Shown here: positions 36,245 through 37,573 of the stretch, piece after piece
How the letters are laid out: the number at the start of each line of letters is the position of its first letter
Position numbering within the stretch: position 1 is the first letter of the stretch
Assembly (NCBI GenBank): GCA_001816585.1
Contig: MHCJ01000003.1
Span: 220,228-284,227 of the forward strand
Direction of reading: 5' to 3'
DNA from: Candidatus Chisholmbacteria bacterium RIFCSPHIGHO2_01_FULL_52_32
GTDB lineage: Bacteria > Patescibacteriota > Microgenomatia > UBA1400 > Chisholmbacteraceae
DNA: 64,000 nt
The notes under the pieces: model-generated
Told to the model about the DNA's origin: nothing
Databases searched by the model: none
Seen by the model: only the letters and a program-made list of their open reading frames with translations
Translations under genes and position numbers: made by a program

Positions 36245-36290
36245 TCGATAAGTTTTCCCATCTTGAGGCTACGGATAATGTAAAGGAATC

Positions 36291-36358
36291 CCTGCCTCGA
36301 ACCACCGACCTGTCCGATGGATCGGACCGCTCTAACCAACTGAGCTACGGACCCCCCC
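36291..36358 (-). pseudogene. truncated tRNA-like element
   Basis: Reverse complement begins GGGTCCGTAGCTCAGTTGGTTAGAGCG (good acceptor 5' strand plus D-arm). It continues as a perfect hairpin GTCCGAT-CC-ATCGGAC where the anticodon arm should be, then AGGTCGGTGGTTCGAGG (variable plus T-stem/loop identical to the neighbouring tRNA-Val). No T-stem 3' strand or acceptor 3' strand follows. Confidence 0.4.
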
Positions 36359-36403
36359 AGATAGCGGTATTGTACACAAGCGGAGCTTCTCACGCAAACG
36401 TAT

Positions 36404-36577
36404 CTAGAATGAGCTCGTATGATCTAAATCTGCCTCGAGCTCCCGAAGTCTCTCGGGAGTAAGGACTTGAGAAGGATGTGCTTCGGCATCCACACTTTGG
36501 TCAGTCTCCAATTGTTCACCTTGCAGCGCGGCACCTTCTCCCCTACTTTCATCGTTCTCCACTTCTGGCATAATCAT
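36404..36577 (-). CDS. small acidic hypothetical protein (ORF A, 57 aa)
   Basis: MIMPEVENDESRGEGAALQGEQLETDQSVDAEAHPSQVLTPERLRELEADLDHTSSF. Perfect SD AAAGGAGGTG 9 nt upstream of the ATG. 18 nt downstream of the ORF B stop. Confidence 0.45.
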   Translation of the reverse strand: MIMPEVENDESRGEGAALQGEQLETDQSVDAEAHPSQVLTPERLRELEADLDHTSSF

Positions 36578-36595
36578 AGAGTATTCCACCTCCTT

Positions 36596-36850
36596 TCAGT
36601 AACTATTTTTCTCATCCTCTCCTTTCTCTGCCTGCGTATGCGTATGAAATGAGTTCCTGTACCTCTTCTCGTAGATGTGGATTAGACGCGGTTGTATGTG
36701 AAAGATATTCACCTTCCAAATATTCTTGAGGAGGAAGGGTGGGGGTGGGTGTCCGTTAGGATTCCACCATGCCCCACCCCATTTGCTGTTTTCTCTTATT
36801 GTTTGGTAACTCCGTAATCCACTAATGATTGTTCGTGTTCGTCTTGCCAT
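36596..36850 (-). CDS. small basic hypothetical protein (ORF B, 84 aa)
   Basis: MARRTRTIISGLRSYQTIRENSKWGGAWWNPNGHPPPPFLLKNIW... Preferred ATG at 36850; the track GTG at 36859 lies inside the SD. Perfect SD AAAAGGAGGTGA with 5-nt spacing. Confidence 0.45.
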   Translation of the reverse strand: MARRTRTIISGLRSYQTIRENSKWGGAWWNPNGHPPPPFLLKNIWKVNIFHIQPRLIHIYEKRYRNSFHTHTQAEKGEDEKNSY

Positions 36851-36870
36851 CTTAATCACCTCCTTTTATC

Positions 36871-36900
36871 CCAACAAAAAACCTCCCTTTTTGGGGGAGG
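36871..36900 (-). terminator. intrinsic terminator hairpin immediately upstream of the ORF B SD
   Basis: Minus-strand CCTCCCCCAAAAAGGGAGG followed by TTTTTTGTTGGG, read directly. Confidence 0.6.
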
Positions 36901-36931
36901 TTGGTTTGGCTTTTTTCTGTTAGTTAGTTAG

Positions 36932-37012
36932 TTACGATACACCACCATACCTCCCCTTTGCGAGGCTAAAAAAGAAGACAAAGTACTTGGTATGGTTTGC
37001 TGCCATCGTCAT
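36932..37012 (-). CDS. candidate leader peptide L2 (26 aa, Phe-rich)
   Basis: Starts 2 nt after a TAAAAT -10 box (37015-37020). MTMAANHTKYFVFFFSLAKGRYGGVS. Its last codons overlap GGGGAGG, which is complementary to the terminator 5' arm CCTCCCC. Followed by stops in all three frames (TAACTAACTAACTAA). Confidence 0.35.
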   Translation of the reverse strand: MTMAANHTKYFVFFFSLAKGRYGGVS

Positions 37013-37096
37013 ATATTTTATTCGTTTGTTGTCATGTTAACCACCGGTTGTGGATTGCATTTCTCTGGCCACTGCGAATTCCCGATTCACATAAAT

Positions 37097-37327
37097 CTAG
37101 AGATTTGGGAGTTCCGGTAAGAACCTTGTTAATGCCGCACGCTTCTGACGCAGCGGTTCGGCTAACTGCGCTACCTCCGGCAAGAGGCTGCCTGTATTCG
37201 GATCGCGCGGCAGGGTTCTGAGTGTTTCGTTCAGCTCCTCCCGAAGAACCAGGGCTTCGTTTGGCGATAGAGAATCCGGTAAAGTCACTGAGAATGTCGT
37301 CTGTTGTAGGGTTTCTTGGAATGCCAT
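37097..37327 (-). CDS. small hypothetical protein (ORF C, 76 aa)
   Basis: MAFQETLQQTTFSVTLPDSLSPNEALVLREELNETLRTLPRDPNTGSLLPEVAQLAEPLRQKRAALTRFLPELPNL. Perfect SD AAAAAGGAGGTGA 7 nt upstream of the ATG. Confidence 0.45.
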   Translation of the reverse strand: MAFQETLQQTTFSVTLPDSLSPNEALVLREELNETLRTLPRDPNTGSLLPEVAQLAEPLRQKRAALTRFLPELPNL

Positions 37328-37347
37328 CTGTTTTCACCTCCTTTTTC

Positions 37348-37375
37348 CAACAAAAAACCTCCCTGGTTTGGGAGG
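37348..37375 (-). terminator. intrinsic terminator hairpin immediately upstream of the ORF C SD
   Basis: Minus-strand CCTCCCAAACCAGGGAGG followed by TTTTTTGTTGG. The hairpin plus a T-run also reads as a terminator on the plus strand. Confidence 0.6.
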
Positions 37376-37403
37376 TTTCTATTTTCTTGTTTTGTATTTT
37401 TCC

Positions 37404-37487
37404 TTACACCAACAGACCTCCCAAACCACGTCTGGCCATGATAATGAGGCCGAAAAAGATGCAAGGGTTTGTGGAAGTTCTGTTCAT
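37404..37487 (-). CDS. candidate leader peptide L1 (27 aa)
   Basis: ATG 7 nt after a TAAAAT -10 box. MNRTSTNPCIFFGLIIMARRGLGGLLV. Its 3' end overlaps TTTGGGAGG, which is complementary to the terminator 5' arm CCTCCCAAA. Confidence 0.35.
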   Translation of the reverse strand: MNRTSTNPCIFFGLIIMARRGLGGLLV

Positions 37488-37494
37488 CAGTATG

Positions 37495-37524
37495 ATTTTA
37501 CGATGTGTGTAATAGATGTGTCAA
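37495..37524 (-). promoter_or_regulatory. sigma-70-like promoter TTGACA-18 nt-TAAAAT driving L1 / ORF C
   Basis: Minus-strand TTGACAcatctattacacacatcgTAAAAT, read directly. Confidence 0.55.
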
Positions 37525-37573
37525 CTGGTAAATGGCTTATAGCTAATAGCAGATGGAAAAAGCGTCTAAACGA

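What the first reader, a model, noticed from the sequence alone, without database searches (positions are those of the whole stretch)
36404..37530. Two tandem promoter / leaderless mini-ORF / terminator / perfect-SD / small-ORF units: candidate ribosome-mediated attenuators controlling unknown small proteins
Seen directly on the minus strand. Unit 1: TTGACA-18-TAAAAT promoter (37495-37524), then a 27-codon ORF starting 7 nt after the -10 box (MNRTSTNPCIFFGLIIMARRGLGGLLV). An intrinsic terminator follows (CCTCCCAAACCAGGGAGG plus TTTTTTGTT, 37348-37375), then immediately AAAAAGGAGGTGA and the 76-aa ORF C. Unit 2: TAAAAT box (37015-37020), then a 26-codon ORF (MTMAANHTKYFVFFFSLAKGRYGGVS) ending in three-frame stops TAACTAACTAACTAA. 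A terminator follows (CCTCCCCCAAAAAGGGAGG plus TTTTTTGTT, 36871-36900), then AAAAGGAGGTGA and ORF B (84 aa, basic), then 18 nt later ORF A (57 aa, acidic) with its own perfect SD. In both units the last codons of the mini-ORF (TTTGGGAGG / GGGGAGG) are exactly complementary to the 5' arm of the downstream terminator. A ribosome reaching the mini-ORF stop would mask the antiterminator, and a ribosome stalled earlier (for example at FVFFF) would free it. This is the trp/pheL attenuation logic; leader 2 is Phe-rich like pheL. The regulated genes are three unannotatable small proteins next to a tRNA cluster and a broken tRNA copy. I know no described system with this architecture.
Basis: partly seen in the sequence, partly recalled or inferred. 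Interest (0 to 1): 0.7.

Follow-up and report, generated by a model that had tools for sequence, protein, structure and literature searches.

The report
Two amino-acid-sensing leader-peptide attenuators
Two short "test" reading frames, each followed by a transcription stop signal, most likely let this uncultivated groundwater bacterium switch on three tiny unknown proteins when phenylalanine (and probably isoleucine) runs short; the switch is a textbook type, and only its host and the genes it controls are unusual.

Summary
On the minus strand there are two units, each made of a mini-ORF, an intrinsic terminator, a strong Shine-Dalgarno (SD) sequence and a small ORF. The CCTCCC..GGGAGG hairpin occurs only at these two sites in 64 kb (0.08 expected).

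Both units are conserved at the same position, after a DUF5660 gene, in three Candidatus Chisholmbacteria relatives and one metagenome contig. Each copy can fold into three mutually exclusive hairpins: 1:2, antiterminator 2:3 and terminator 3:4.

Unit 2 carries a conserved Phe-codon run with synonymous TTT/TTC changes. Unit 1 shares its promoter and leaderless geometry with its ortholog, but it has no clean run (three Ile, plus Phe and Leu).

A pattern scan of metagenomes found more than 100 similar units. In 30 sampled downstream genes, the leader's amino-acid run usually matched the pathway of the downstream gene (Phe with DAHP synthase or PheA, Cys with cysteine synthase and CysRS, Ser with SerA/SerB, Thr with ThrRS).

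These are therefore classical ribosome-mediated transcription attenuators, not a new architecture. Two things are unusual. The host belongs to the candidate phyla radiation (CPR). The cargo is lineage-specific: three proteins with no homologs (ORFans) here, and peptidases plus unknown proteins in relatives.

I rate this a new member of a known kind, of moderate interest.

The parts
37495..37524 (-). Unit 1 promoter: TTGACA, 18 nt spacer, TAAAAT. The ATG lies 7 nt after the -10 box, so the transcript is leaderless or nearly so.
   Evidence: (11/12 match). The -35 box and the start of the spacer (TTGACACATCYATTACA), the 18-nt spacing, and a 7-8 nt distance to the ATG are all conserved in ortholog L009.
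37404..37487 (-). Leader ORF 1, 27 codons: MNRTSTNPCIFFGLIIMARRGLGGLLV. The candidate regulatory codons ATC TTT TTC GGC CTC ATT ATC lie at 37440-37460.
   Evidence: The ortholog in L009 reads MNKVSQTYMLIDPIFVLITKGSFGLGETL, with three Ile plus Phe and Leu at the equivalent distance from region 2.
37466..37484 (-). Unit 1 region 1 (AACAGAACTTCCACAAACC). It pairs with region 2 when the leader is not being translated.
   Evidence: The leader ORF alone folds at -30.9 kcal/mol. The same 1:2 pairing is present in L009_1.
37416..37427 (-). Unit 1 region 2 (GGTTTGGGAGGT), the 5' strand of the antiterminator. It ends 9 nt before the stop codon.
   Evidence: It is a perfect 12-nt complement of 37365-37376. 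The antiterminator state folds at -32.4 kcal/mol. The duplex is -28.6 kcal/mol against -16.7 with shuffled flanks (z = -4.6, 0 of 200 shuffles).
37352..37378 (-). Unit 1 intrinsic terminator (regions 3 and 4): AAACCTCCC, loop AAACCA, GGGAGGTTT, then TTTTTT.
   Evidence: -14.1 kcal/mol. The motif occurs only twice in the window.
37097..37343 (-). SD AAGGAGGTGA (37334-37343) and ORF C (37327-37097; 76 aa, pI 4.8, no Ile).
   Evidence: No homologs. Codon usage is gene-like (0.165, against a spurious-ORF 95th percentile of 0.109). AlphaFold2 gives a two-helix hairpin at pLDDT 75.
37015..37020 (-). Unit 2 -10-like box TAAAAT. There is no convincing -35 box.
   Evidence: not listed as a promoter. 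The best -35 candidate matches 3/6, judged by reading.
36932..37012 (-). Leader ORF 2, 26 codons: MTMAANHTKYFVFFFSLAKGRYGGVS. The Phe run TTT GTC TTC TTT TTT lies at 36968-36982. Stops in all three frames lie at 36920-36934.
   Evidence: The Phe run is conserved in L007, L008, L025 and L009_2 with TTT/TTC synonymous variation. Rfam Phe_leader scores 29.4 bits full length, below threshold.
36942..36956 (-). Unit 2 region 2 (GGGGAGGTATGGTGG), the 5' strand of the antiterminator.
   Evidence: it pairs with CCAAACCAACCTCCCC (36894-36909), and the antiterminator state folds at -22.4 kcal/mol. The extension beyond the core is modest (z = -1.3).
36876..36902 (-). Unit 2 intrinsic terminator: AACCTCCC, loop CCAAAAA, GGGAGGTT, then TTTTTT. 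It is also the only terminator downstream of ORF C.
   Evidence: -12.1 kcal/mol.
36596..36865 (-). SD AAGGAGGTGA (36856-36865) and ORF B (36850-36596; 84 aa, pI 10.3).
   Evidence: only identical copies exist. Codon usage is ambiguous (0.038). AlphaFold2 pLDDT is 58.
36404..36595 (-). SD AAGGAGGTGG (36586-36595) and ORF A (36577-36404; 57 aa, pI 4.05).
   Evidence: only itself, found on 26 contigs. Codon usage is gene-like (0.18).

Best explanation
Both units are classical three-hairpin transcription attenuators that depend on translation of a leader peptide.

How a unit works (inferred):
1. RNA polymerase starts at or near the leader ATG. Unit 1 has a strong sigma-70-type promoter and a leaderless start.
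2. A ribosome translates the 26-27 codon leader while polymerase transcribes the downstream segments.
3. If the ribosome runs freely to the stop codon, it covers region 2, the GGAGG-containing end of the leader. Regions 3 and 4 then form the CCUCCC/GGGAGG hairpin followed by a U-run, and transcription ends about 25 nt before the small ORF.
4. If the leader is not translated at all, region 1 pairs with region 2 and the terminator forms again.
5. If the ribosome stalls at the hungry codons in the middle of the leader, it breaks the 1:2 pairing but leaves region 2 free. Region 2 then pairs with region 3, the terminator cannot form, and polymerase reads into the downstream ORFs, which have very strong SD sequences.

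What each unit senses and controls (inferred):
- Unit 2 senses charged tRNA-Phe through the run F-V-F-F-F and controls ORF B and ORF A.
- Unit 1 probably senses Ile, possibly together with Phe and Leu, through I-F-F-G-L-I-I. It controls ORF C.
- The unit 2 terminator also ends ORF C transcripts.

Shown versus inferred:
- Shown: the sequence elements, their rarity, their conservation, the alternative folds, and the class-wide match between leader amino acid and downstream pathway.
- Inferred: translation of the leaders, the actual transcript 5' and 3' ends, the response to amino-acid shortage, and the function of ORFs A, B and C.

My working guess is that ORFs A-C are starvation-induced small proteins of an amino-acid auxotroph.
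For: 1. Rarity. The hairpin motif occurs twice against 0.08 expected, and the hairpin 3' arm with its T-run (GGAGGTTTTTTGTTGG) matches exactly only at these two sites.

2. No independent promoter. Only about 25 nt separate the T-run from the ATG, and the SD fills that gap. The small ORFs can therefore only be reached by read-through.

3. Conservation.
- The same mini-ORF plus hairpin follows the DUF5660 gene in L007, L008 and L009 (Ca. Chisholmbacteria, 58-69% protein identity) and in L025.
- Unit 2 aligns to L007, L008 and L025 at 75-77% nucleotide identity.
- The stretch from the 3' part of the DUF5660 gene through unit 1 aligns to L009 at 66%.
- The coding sequences downstream are unrelated.

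4. Alternative folds. All seven units fold into a terminator (-9.6 to -14.1 kcal/mol), an antiterminator 2:3 state (-19 to -32) and a 1:2 state (-15.5 to -31). The antiterminator extension differs between subtypes but stays complementary: a loop-invading GGUUUGG:CCAAACC, a 5'-flank AUGGUGG:CCAAACCA, and UGUGUUCUUGC:GCAAGAAAUAUACA.

5. Evidence that the leaders are translated.
- The Phe run is kept in five unit-2-type leaders with TTT/TTC changes.
- The frame is kept despite leader lengths of 24-28 codons.
- GGAGG is read in two different frames, which argues that the Phe run is under coding constraint while the GGAGG region is under RNA constraint.

6. Geometry. The stop codon lies 9 nt (unit 1) or 14 nt (unit 2) after GGAGGT, so a terminating ribosome covers all or part of region 2. 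The regulatory codons lie 12-33 nt upstream of region 2.

7. Similarity to known attenuators. Both units give full-length but sub-threshold Rfam hits to Phe_leader (29.4 and 26.3 bits), and unit 2 also to Trp_leader (25.5 bits).

8. Class-level test.
- Of 119 unique hits, 104 carry a 12-50 codon ATG mini-ORF ending between the two elements, against 20% at control GGAGGT sites.
- Runs of at least 4 identical residues within 7 occur in 48% of hits against 20% of controls.
- Complementarity extends beyond the enforced core (mean z = -1.9, p about 1e-33).
- In the 30 downstream genes sampled, the leader run usually fits the gene: Phe/Tyr with DAHP synthase, DHQ synthase or PheA; Cys with cysteine-synthase-like PALP enzymes and CysRS; Ser with SerA/SerB; Thr with ThrRS; aromatic or His with aminotransferases and TrpB-like proteins.

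9. Weak hints from cargo composition. All 8 proteins behind Phe leaders are below the window's background Phe content (4.2%), and ORF C has no Ile (P about 0.006, uncorrected).
Against: - There are no expression data of any kind: no transcript 5' or 3' ends, and no evidence that the leaders or ORFs A, B and C are translated.
- None of the seven mini-ORFs has an SD sequence. In L007, L008, L025 and window unit 2 the promoter geometry does not clearly give a leaderless start, so how those leaders are translated is unexplained.
- Unit 1 has no homopolymeric run, so its signal is a guess.
- Hydrophobic Leu/Ile leaders elsewhere precede SAM methyltransferases. Not every such leader need be an amino-acid sensor.
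- The unit 2 antiterminator extends little beyond the 8-bp core (z = -1.3, 27 of 200 shuffles). A ribosome at its stop codon covers only the 3' half of region 2.
- The cargo has no recognisable link to Phe or Ile metabolism.
- ORF B has ambiguous codon usage and a low-confidence structure model.
- Covariation inside the terminator stem is minimal because the CCUCC/GGAGG core is invariant.
- The class-level evidence comes from a pattern that enforced the core complementarity. The taxonomy of those contigs is unknown, and only 30 downstream genes, chosen by me, were annotated.
Confidence: 0.75

Rival explanations
1. The units are attenuators driven by ribosome stalling, but the signal is not amino-acid supply. 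A small molecule, an antibiotic or a property of the nascent peptide would arrest the ribosome on the hydrophobic stretch, as with erm, cat and ABC-F leaders or TnaC and SpeFL. This applies mainly to unit 1.
For: - Unit 1 and its ortholog have no clean run of a single amino acid.
- Leu/Ile-rich leaders of the same layout precede class I SAM methyltransferases in L029, L030 and L100, which recalls erm-type regulation.
- The cargo is unrelated to amino-acid metabolism.
Against: - Unit 2 has a conserved Phe run, and comparable runs precede aromatic-pathway genes elsewhere.
- The two unit-1-type peptides share little sequence apart from the Ile/Phe/Leu positions.
- No resistance-type gene lies downstream.
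Confidence: 0.12
2. The attenuators are real, but ORFs A, B and C are not functional genes (ORF B in particular). The original cargo was lost or replaced at a variable site next to a tRNA gene, leaving conserved switches in front of junk or very young ORFs.
For: - No homolog was found for any of the three among billions of proteins.
- The cargo differs completely between close relatives.
- A decayed tRNA-Val copy lies next to the locus.
- ORF B has ambiguous codon usage (0.038) and pLDDT 58.
Against: - All three ORFs have near-perfect SD sequences at ideal spacing, and such SDs are rare in this window.
- Codon usage of ORFs C and A lies above the 95th percentile of spurious ORFs.
- ORF C is predicted from a single sequence to form a confident helical hairpin.
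- The locus is identical or nearly identical in contigs from several samples.
- No remnants of the relatives' cargo were detected.
Confidence: 0.1
3. The hairpins are ordinary terminators, of the DUF5660 gene and of ORF C. The mini-ORFs are chance ORFs, and the small ORFs are expressed independently.
For: - Hairpins with U-runs are generic gene ends.
- Promoter-like and terminator-like sites in the region are only slightly above shuffle expectation overall.
Against: - There is no room for a promoter between the T-run and the SD.
- Unit 1 has its own promoter downstream of the DUF5660 stop codon.
- The mini-ORFs, the Phe run and the 2:3 complementarity are conserved across relatives while the flanking cargo is not.
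- A mini-ORF is present in 87% of pattern hits against 20% of controls.
Confidence: 0.03

Closest known systems
pheL-pheA and trpL-trpEDCBA leader-peptide attenuators of Proteobacteria (Rfam RF01859, RF00513; PMC3082878, PMC1183508)
   Same: - A short leader ORF carries a run of codons for the sensed amino acid.
- There are 1:2, 2:3 and 3:4 alternative hairpins.
- An intrinsic terminator lies just before the regulated gene.
- A ribosome at the stop codon blocks region 2, while a ribosome stalled at the run frees it.
- Both units give full-length matches to the Phe_leader model.
   Different: - The scores are far below the Rfam gathering thresholds (29.4 and 26.3 against 55; 25.5 against 41), so this is an analog and not a homolog.
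- The host is a CPR bacterium.
- The leader lacks an SD and, in unit 1, is leaderless.
- The regulated genes are small proteins without homologs, not biosynthetic enzymes.
- The core of the 2:3 and 3:4 pairing is the GGAGG/CCUCC (SD/anti-SD-like) sequence.
Leaderless poly-Cys short ORFs acting as Cys-responsive attenuators in mycobacteria (bioRxiv 10.1101/834739); leaderless leader peptides of Corynebacterium attenuators (PMC11857589; the rest from my own knowledge)
   Same: The leader ORF starts at the transcript 5' end without an SD sequence. A run of one amino acid's codons sets expression of the downstream operon.
   Different: This is a different phylum with no sequence relationship. Here a canonical hairpin followed by a U-run is present.
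Tandem attenuators in one leader (Salmonella mgtCBR, PMC3641672)
   Same: Two short ORFs that each control a structure sit in series on one transcription unit, which allows two signals to be combined.
   Different: In mgtCBR both short ORFs lie in one long leader ahead of the first gene. Here a gene (ORF C) sits between the two attenuators, and the second unit may have its own start.
pheST attenuation by the pheM leader in E. coli (from my own knowledge)
   Same: It is a Phe-codon leader controlling genes that are not Phe-biosynthetic. The thrS-infC-rpmI-rplT-pheS cluster lies just downstream in this genome.
   Different: The attenuators here are not in front of pheS. They precede lineage-specific small ORFs.

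Membership tests
Ribosome-mediated (leader-peptide) transcription attenuator | A short translatable ORF lies in the 5' leader, on the same transcript as the regulated gene. | tested here: met
   ATG ORFs of 27 and 26 codons. They are conserved in five further units. Translation itself was not shown.
Ribosome-mediated (leader-peptide) transcription attenuator | A cluster of regulatory codons for the sensed amino acid sits at the right distance upstream of region 2. | tested here: met
   For unit 2, 4 of 5 consecutive codons are Phe, lie 12-27 nt upstream of region 2, and are conserved with synonymous changes. For unit 1 alone the result is inconclusive: three Ile, two Phe and one Leu within 7 codons, with no run.
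Ribosome-mediated (leader-peptide) transcription attenuator | An intrinsic terminator lies between the leader ORF and the regulated gene. | tested here: met
   Stems of 8-9 bp with 5-6 G-C pairs, at -12.1 and -14.1 kcal/mol, each followed by TTTTTT. The termination activity itself cannot be tested here.
Ribosome-mediated (leader-peptide) transcription attenuator | A mutually exclusive antiterminator (2:3) and anti-antiterminator (1:2), the latter overlapped by the leader ORF. | tested here: met
   One search shows both in all seven units. Unit 1 has a perfect 12-bp 2:3 helix (z = -4.6). The unit 2 core is 8 bp with a modest extension.
Ribosome-mediated (leader-peptide) transcription attenuator | The stop codon is placed so that a terminating ribosome masks region 2. 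| tested here: met
   In unit 1 the stop lies 9 nt after GGAGGT, fully within a ribosome footprint. In unit 2 it lies 14 nt after, so only the 3' half of region 2 is covered, which is borderline.
Ribosome-mediated (leader-peptide) transcription attenuator | Read-through rises when the cognate aminoacyl-tRNA is limiting. | not testable with these tools
   This needs Term-seq, reporter assays or in vitro transcription-translation.
Ribosome-mediated (leader-peptide) transcription attenuator | The regulated genes belong to the supply pathway of the sensed amino acid (usual, but not obligatory). | tested here: not met
   ORFs A, B and C have no hit in Pfam, PHROGs, NCBIfam or PADLOC and no homologs. 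Relatives carry M24 and C26-type peptidases plus unknown proteins.
Rfam RF01859 Phe_leader (enterobacterial pheL) | A covariance-model score at or above the gathering threshold (55 bits). | tested here: not met
   29.4 bits (unit 2) and 26.3 bits (unit 1). Both matches span the full model (positions 1-125), with E = 0.02 and 0.099.
Rfam RF00513 Trp_leader | A covariance-model score at or above the gathering threshold (41 bits). | tested here: not met
   25.5 bits for unit 2.
Riboswitch, T-box or any other curated cis-regulatory RNA | A match to any Rfam family at its gathering score. | tested here: not met
   Only tRNAs reach the gathering score in the window.
Drug-responsive leader-peptide attenuators (erm, cat, ABC-F type) | A resistance determinant lies downstream, and the arrest peptide depends on the drug. 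| tested here: not met
   No methyltransferase, acetyltransferase or ABC-F domain occurs in ORFs A, B or C. Drug dependence cannot be tested here.

The most novel reading that the evidence does not exclude
In a CPR bacterium that presumably cannot make its own amino acids, conserved Phe- and Ile-type attenuators act as portable starvation switches. They sit at a variable site flanked by tRNA-Val, and the cargo there has been exchanged between lineages: peptidases plus large unknown proteins in relatives, and small proteins without homologs here. On this reading ORFs A, B and C are a new kind of starvation-induced small effector, for example acting on the host cell, on peptide scavenging or on the translation apparatus. 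The leaders would then give a direct readout of which genes an uncultivated symbiont switches on when a particular amino acid runs out.
Probability: 0.25. Interest if true: 0.6.

Novelty: new member of a known kind. Interest (0 to 1): 0.4.

Why it matters
Leader-peptide attenuation is textbook biology. However, three full-text searches of the held library found no paper that links leader-peptide attenuation to Patescibacteria/CPR.

CPR bacteria are thought to depend on other cells for amino acids, and little is known about how they regulate their genes. A leader that names its own signal, here Phe, gives a sequence-only way to list the genes such organisms induce when a given amino acid is short. 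In this lineage those genes are peptidases, unknown 360-570 aa proteins, and very small proteins without homologs. This assigns a testable physiological context to otherwise unannotatable genes.

The finding does not change how attenuation is understood.

Tried and rejected
- **Close strain variants.** L001 (99.85% identical) has only 10 SNPs, so it cannot support a selection analysis. L002 is a chimeric contig and was ignored.
- **Homology of ORFs A, B and C.** The word-indexed search found only identical or near-identical copies. The exhaustive HMMER search for ORF C gave one spurious hit, to a low-complexity repeat in a 2362-aa eukaryote-like protein. Pfam, PHROGs, NCBIfam and PADLOC gave nothing. 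NCBIfam also has no match to the leader peptides.
- **Structure.** ORF C is a generic two-helix hairpin, and Foldseek against the PDB gave no hit with E below 1. The ORF B model has low confidence.
- **Pseudogene remnants.** I tested whether ORFs A-C are remnants of the relatives' cargo with tblastn and blastn, and found nothing.
- **Foreign island.** GC content dips only mildly, to 43-47% against 48-53% nearby, so I did not pursue this.
- **Other attenuators in the window.** A loose scan for a terminator preceded by a mini-ORF found only these two convincing units.
- **Covariation counting.** The MAFFT alignment of the five unit-2-type leaders is out of register in the stems. I therefore used per-sequence folding and a flank-shuffle test instead of the count of structure pairs, and I built no covariance model.
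- **pheL frameshifting.** I checked whether it explains the three-frame stops. In pheL the shift occurs at CCC_UGA, not in the Phe run, so the link is only an inference.
- **tRNA-Val(GAC) as the sensed tRNA.** I considered this because of the GTC codon inside the Phe run. I rejected it because L008 lacks the Val codon.


Full report

Unit 1:
- Promoter TTGACA-18-TAAAAT at 37524-37495, an 11/12 match.
- An ATG 7 nt after the -10 box, opening a 27-codon ORF at 37487-37404.
- Hairpin AAACCTCCC/GGGAGGTTT followed by TTTTTT, at 37378-37352.
- SD AAGGAGGTGA, then ORF C (76 aa, 37327-37097).

Unit 2:
- TAAAAT at 37020-37015 and a 26-codon ORF at 37012-36932.
- That ORF ends in TAACTAACTAACTAA, which places a stop in all three frames.
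- Hairpin plus T-run at 36902-36876.
- SD, then ORF B (84 aa), and 18 nt later ORF A (57 aa) with its own SD.

These features are not chance.
- The CCTCCC-N-GGGAGG hairpin occurs twice in 64 kb against 0.08 expected.
- The hairpin 3' arm with its T-run (GGAGGTTTTTTGTTGG) matches exactly only at these two sites.
- The exact AAGGAGGTGA occurs only three times in the window.

Three corrections are needed.
- Unit 2 has no credible -35 box, and its -10 box ends 2 nt before the first ATG. The leaderless claim is therefore solid only for unit 1.
- Only one intact tRNA is adjacent.
- The "broken tRNA" is a decayed tRNA-Val copy.

**2. Where the window comes from, and whether the unit is conserved**

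The locus is identical to a 352-kb contig from the Rifle aquifer, and it occurs in several other samples.

The upstream gene encodes a DUF5660 protein. Its relatives, at 58-69% identity, lie in three Patescibacteria genomes, two of them labelled Candidatus Chisholmbacteria. In all three the DUF5660 gene is followed by the same kind of unit, and L009 has two. A fourth relative, L025, came from the metagenome scan.

At the nucleotide level, window unit 2 aligns to L007, L008 and L025 at 75-77%. The stretch from the 3' part of the DUF5660 gene through unit 1 aligns to L009 at 66%. That alignment includes the promoter (TTGACACATCYATTACA), the 18-nt spacer and the 7-8 nt distance to the ATG.

The genes behind the hairpins are unrelated between genomes.
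- L008: an unknown 361-aa protein plus an M24 peptidase.
- L009: an unknown 538-aa protein plus a GATase1/C26-type protein, then a second leader and an unknown 547-aa protein.
- L007 and L025: two other small proteins.

The switch is conserved and the cargo is not.

**3. Structure**

Each of the seven units, folded on its own, gives three states:
- a terminator, at -9.6 to -14.1 kcal/mol;
- a long-range antiterminator, when the 3' arm is left out, at -19 to -32 kcal/mol;
- a hairpin inside the leader ORF that ties up region 2, at -15.5 to -31 kcal/mol.

In unit 1 the antiterminator is a perfect 12-bp helix that invades the terminator loop. Its duplex energy is -28.6 kcal/mol against -16.7 with shuffled flanks (z = -4.6, 0 of 200 shuffles). 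In unit 2 the core is GGGGAGGU:ACCUCCCC with a modest extension (z = -1.3).

The extension differs between subtypes but stays complementary, which is the only real covariation available. The CCUCC/GGAGG core never varies.

An Rfam scan at a relaxed threshold gives full-length matches of both units to Phe_leader (29.4 and 26.3 bits, gathering score 55) and of unit 2 to Trp_leader (25.5 bits, gathering score 41). These scores indicate the same architecture but not membership of those families. Nothing except tRNAs reaches a gathering score in the window.

**4. Are the leaders translated, and what do they sense?**

The five unit-2-type leaders are MTMAANHTKYFVFFFSLAKGRYGGVS, MKSANTFFFACFFSLAKGRYGSGA, MNTLSPNTRNSFFVFFFSLLQGRYGGV, MNTLSLNTRKSLFVFFFSPLQGRYGGGV and MNLITRITTSFEFFSFCKGGCVLAEK.
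- They keep four to five Phe codons, with TTT/TTC exchanges.
- The frame is kept despite length changes.
- The GGAGG element downstream is read in two different frames.

The Phe run is therefore constrained as coding sequence, and the GGAGG region as RNA.

The run lies 12-27 nt upstream of region 2. The stop codon lies 9 nt (unit 1) or 14 nt (unit 2) after GGAGGT. A terminating ribosome would thus cover all or part of region 2, while one stalled at the run would free it. This is the pheL model as described in PMC3082878 and PMC1183508.

Unit 1 (MNRTSTNPCIFFGLIIMARRGLGGLLV) and its ortholog (MNKVSQTYMLIDPIFVLITKGSFGLGETL) share three Ile plus Phe and Leu at the equivalent position, but no run. 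I take Ile, possibly with Phe and Leu, as the most likely signal, with low certainty.

**5. Class-level test**

I scanned public collections for GGAGGT-N30-55-ACCTCC-N5-9-GGAGGTTTTTT.

- Of 119 unique matches, 104 have a 12-50 codon ATG mini-ORF ending between the two elements, against 20% at control GGAGGT sites.
- Runs of at least four identical residues within seven are 2.4 times more frequent than in controls.
- Complementarity extends beyond the enforced core (mean z = -1.9).

The peptides carry runs of Phe, Cys, Trp/Tyr/His, Ile, Leu, Met, Thr or Ser.

I chose 30 downstream genes and annotated them with Pfam. They usually fit the run:

| Leader run | Downstream gene |
|---|---|
| Phe/Tyr | DAHP synthase, dehydroquinate synthase, chorismate mutase-prephenate dehydratase, aminotransferase |
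| Cys | cysteine-synthase-like PALP enzymes and CysRS |
| Ser | SerA/SerB-type fusions |
| Thr | ThrRS |
| Aromatic or His | aminotransferases, a TrpB-like enzyme, M20 peptidases |

Exceptions exist. Some leaders precede PfkB kinases, an epimerase or unknown proteins.

The pattern enforced the core pairing, and the taxonomy of those contigs is unknown. This therefore shows that the layout is the classical attenuator. It does not show how common the layout is in CPR.

Leu/Ile-rich leaders in front of SAM methyltransferases are a warning that hydrophobic leaders may sense something else.

**6. The cargo**

ORFs A, B and C have no homologs beyond identical or near-identical copies among 5.8 billion clustered proteins. 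For ORF C there is also none among 1.8 billion representatives searched exhaustively; the one extra hit is a low-complexity artefact. No protein-family library matches them.

- Codon usage is gene-like for ORF C (0.165) and ORF A (0.18) and ambiguous for ORF B (0.038). Real genes average 0.21 with sd 0.10, and the 95th percentile of spurious ORFs is 0.109.
- AlphaFold2 on single sequences gives a two-helix hairpin for ORF C (pLDDT 75) and a poor model for ORF B (pLDDT 58). No fold match was found.
- Their SD sequences are among the strongest in the window.
- ORF C contains no Ile. All eight proteins behind Phe leaders are below the window's background Phe content. These are weak hints that fit expression during shortage.

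**7. Mechanism and logic of the tandem**

The best-supported model is amino-acid-responsive, ribosome-mediated transcription attenuation.

No terminator separates ORF C from unit 2. Transcripts that pass attenuator 1 therefore meet attenuator 2, whose terminator also ends the ORF C message. ORFs B and A then need either a separate start at unit 2 or read-through of both switches. Which of these applies cannot be decided without transcript ends.

The core of region 2 is an SD-like GGAGG, and the terminator 5' arm is CCUCC. The anti-SD of a ribosome translating the last codons could therefore also hold region 2. In L009_2 the terminator 3' arm is itself the SD of the downstream gene. Both points are inference only.

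**8. Comparison with known systems, and novelty**

The closest known systems are:
- pheL and trpL attenuators (PMC3082878, PMC1183508);
- leaderless poly-Cys attenuator ORFs in mycobacteria (10.1101/834739);
- tandem attenuators in mgtCBR (PMC3641672);
- pheM-pheST (from my own knowledge).

Three full-text searches found no paper that links leader-peptide attenuation to Patescibacteria/CPR.

The units meet the structural criteria of the class. They fail the Rfam thresholds of the enterobacterial families, and their cargo lies outside amino-acid biosynthesis. I therefore file them as a new member of a known kind.

**9. Verdict**

The claim of a new architecture is not supported.

Interest is 0.4. 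The value lies in giving a physiological handle on unannotatable genes of an uncultivated lineage, not in a new mechanism.

Noticed in passing
L011:10046-10116 (-), L013:777-848 (+), L014:7955-8021 (-); also L035, L052, L058, L086: In IMG/VR contigs with a Bacteroidetes-type promoter, a 23-codon mini-ORF (MKTTMLHTQRLLQPDNLSGGIGV and variants) plus a terminator of the same layout sits directly upstream of a tRNA array. The array is Pro-Gln-His-Arg in L011 and L014, and Pro-Asp-Met-Gln-His-Arg in L013. The conserved residues of the mini-ORF (His CAT, Gln CAA, Arg CGA/CGC, Pro CCC/CCG, plus Asp and Met) are the ones decoded by those tRNAs. This looks like a leader-peptide attenuator giving feedback control of a phage tRNA operon. 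One literature search found no description of it.
   Followed up: partly
window 36282-36347 (-): A decayed copy of tRNA-Val lies between ORF A and the intact tRNA-Val(GAC). The D-arm and anticodon stem are kept, one base is missing from the anticodon loop, and the 3' half of the T-arm and the acceptor stem are lost. It scores 14.5 bits against the tRNA model. A promoter-like TTGCGT-17-TACAAT lies just upstream (36371-36399; read). L008 has a 3' tRNA fragment after its tRNA-Val. Together these suggest a recombination-prone site.
   Followed up: partly
L009:9383-11026 (+) and L044:1137-2852 (-): An unknown protein family of about 550-570 aa (34% identity, E = 2e-77, no Pfam match) lies directly behind Phe-type leaders in two unrelated contigs. 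In L044 it is followed by an M20 peptidase. It is a candidate Phe-starvation-induced enzyme.
   Followed up: partly
L008:6640-6690, L007:1900-1955, L025:1930-1965: Between the DUF5660 stop codon and the Phe leader there is a second, out-of-context copy of the gene's last codons (..RMSTQAG*). The leader region may therefore have arisen by duplication of the gene's 3' end.
   Followed up: no
window 36999-37008 (-), versus L001:2780-2789: A strain variant that is 99.85% identical carries three SNPs within 10 nt at the start of leader ORF 2 (MTMAAN becomes MRMEEN). All three change the amino acid and weaken the outer part of the 1:2 pairing. Four of the 10 SNPs in 6.7 kb fall within the finding's region. 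This could be real relaxation of the leader's N-terminus or an assembly artefact.
   Followed up: no
L029:4692-5417, L030:8847-9554, L100:617-2005: Leu/Ile-rich leaders of the same layout (for example MELNFVRISLINACLLLGKRRGEVLA) precede class I SAM methyltransferases. These may be erm-like, drug-responsive attenuators rather than amino-acid sensors.
   Followed up: no
window 37097-37327 (-) and the cargo proteins of related loci: ORF C has no Ile at all, where 6.7% is expected (P about 0.006, uncorrected). All eight proteins behind Phe-type leaders have less Phe than the window's long ORFs (0-3.6% against 4.2%).
   Followed up: partly
L002 (JGI 3300025313, Ga0209431_10375651): The contig is identical to the window for 838 nt. 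It then switches, inside ORF C, to unrelated sequence of higher GC content. This is probably an assembly chimera, and it created the 56-aa 'homolog' P0002.
   Followed up: yes
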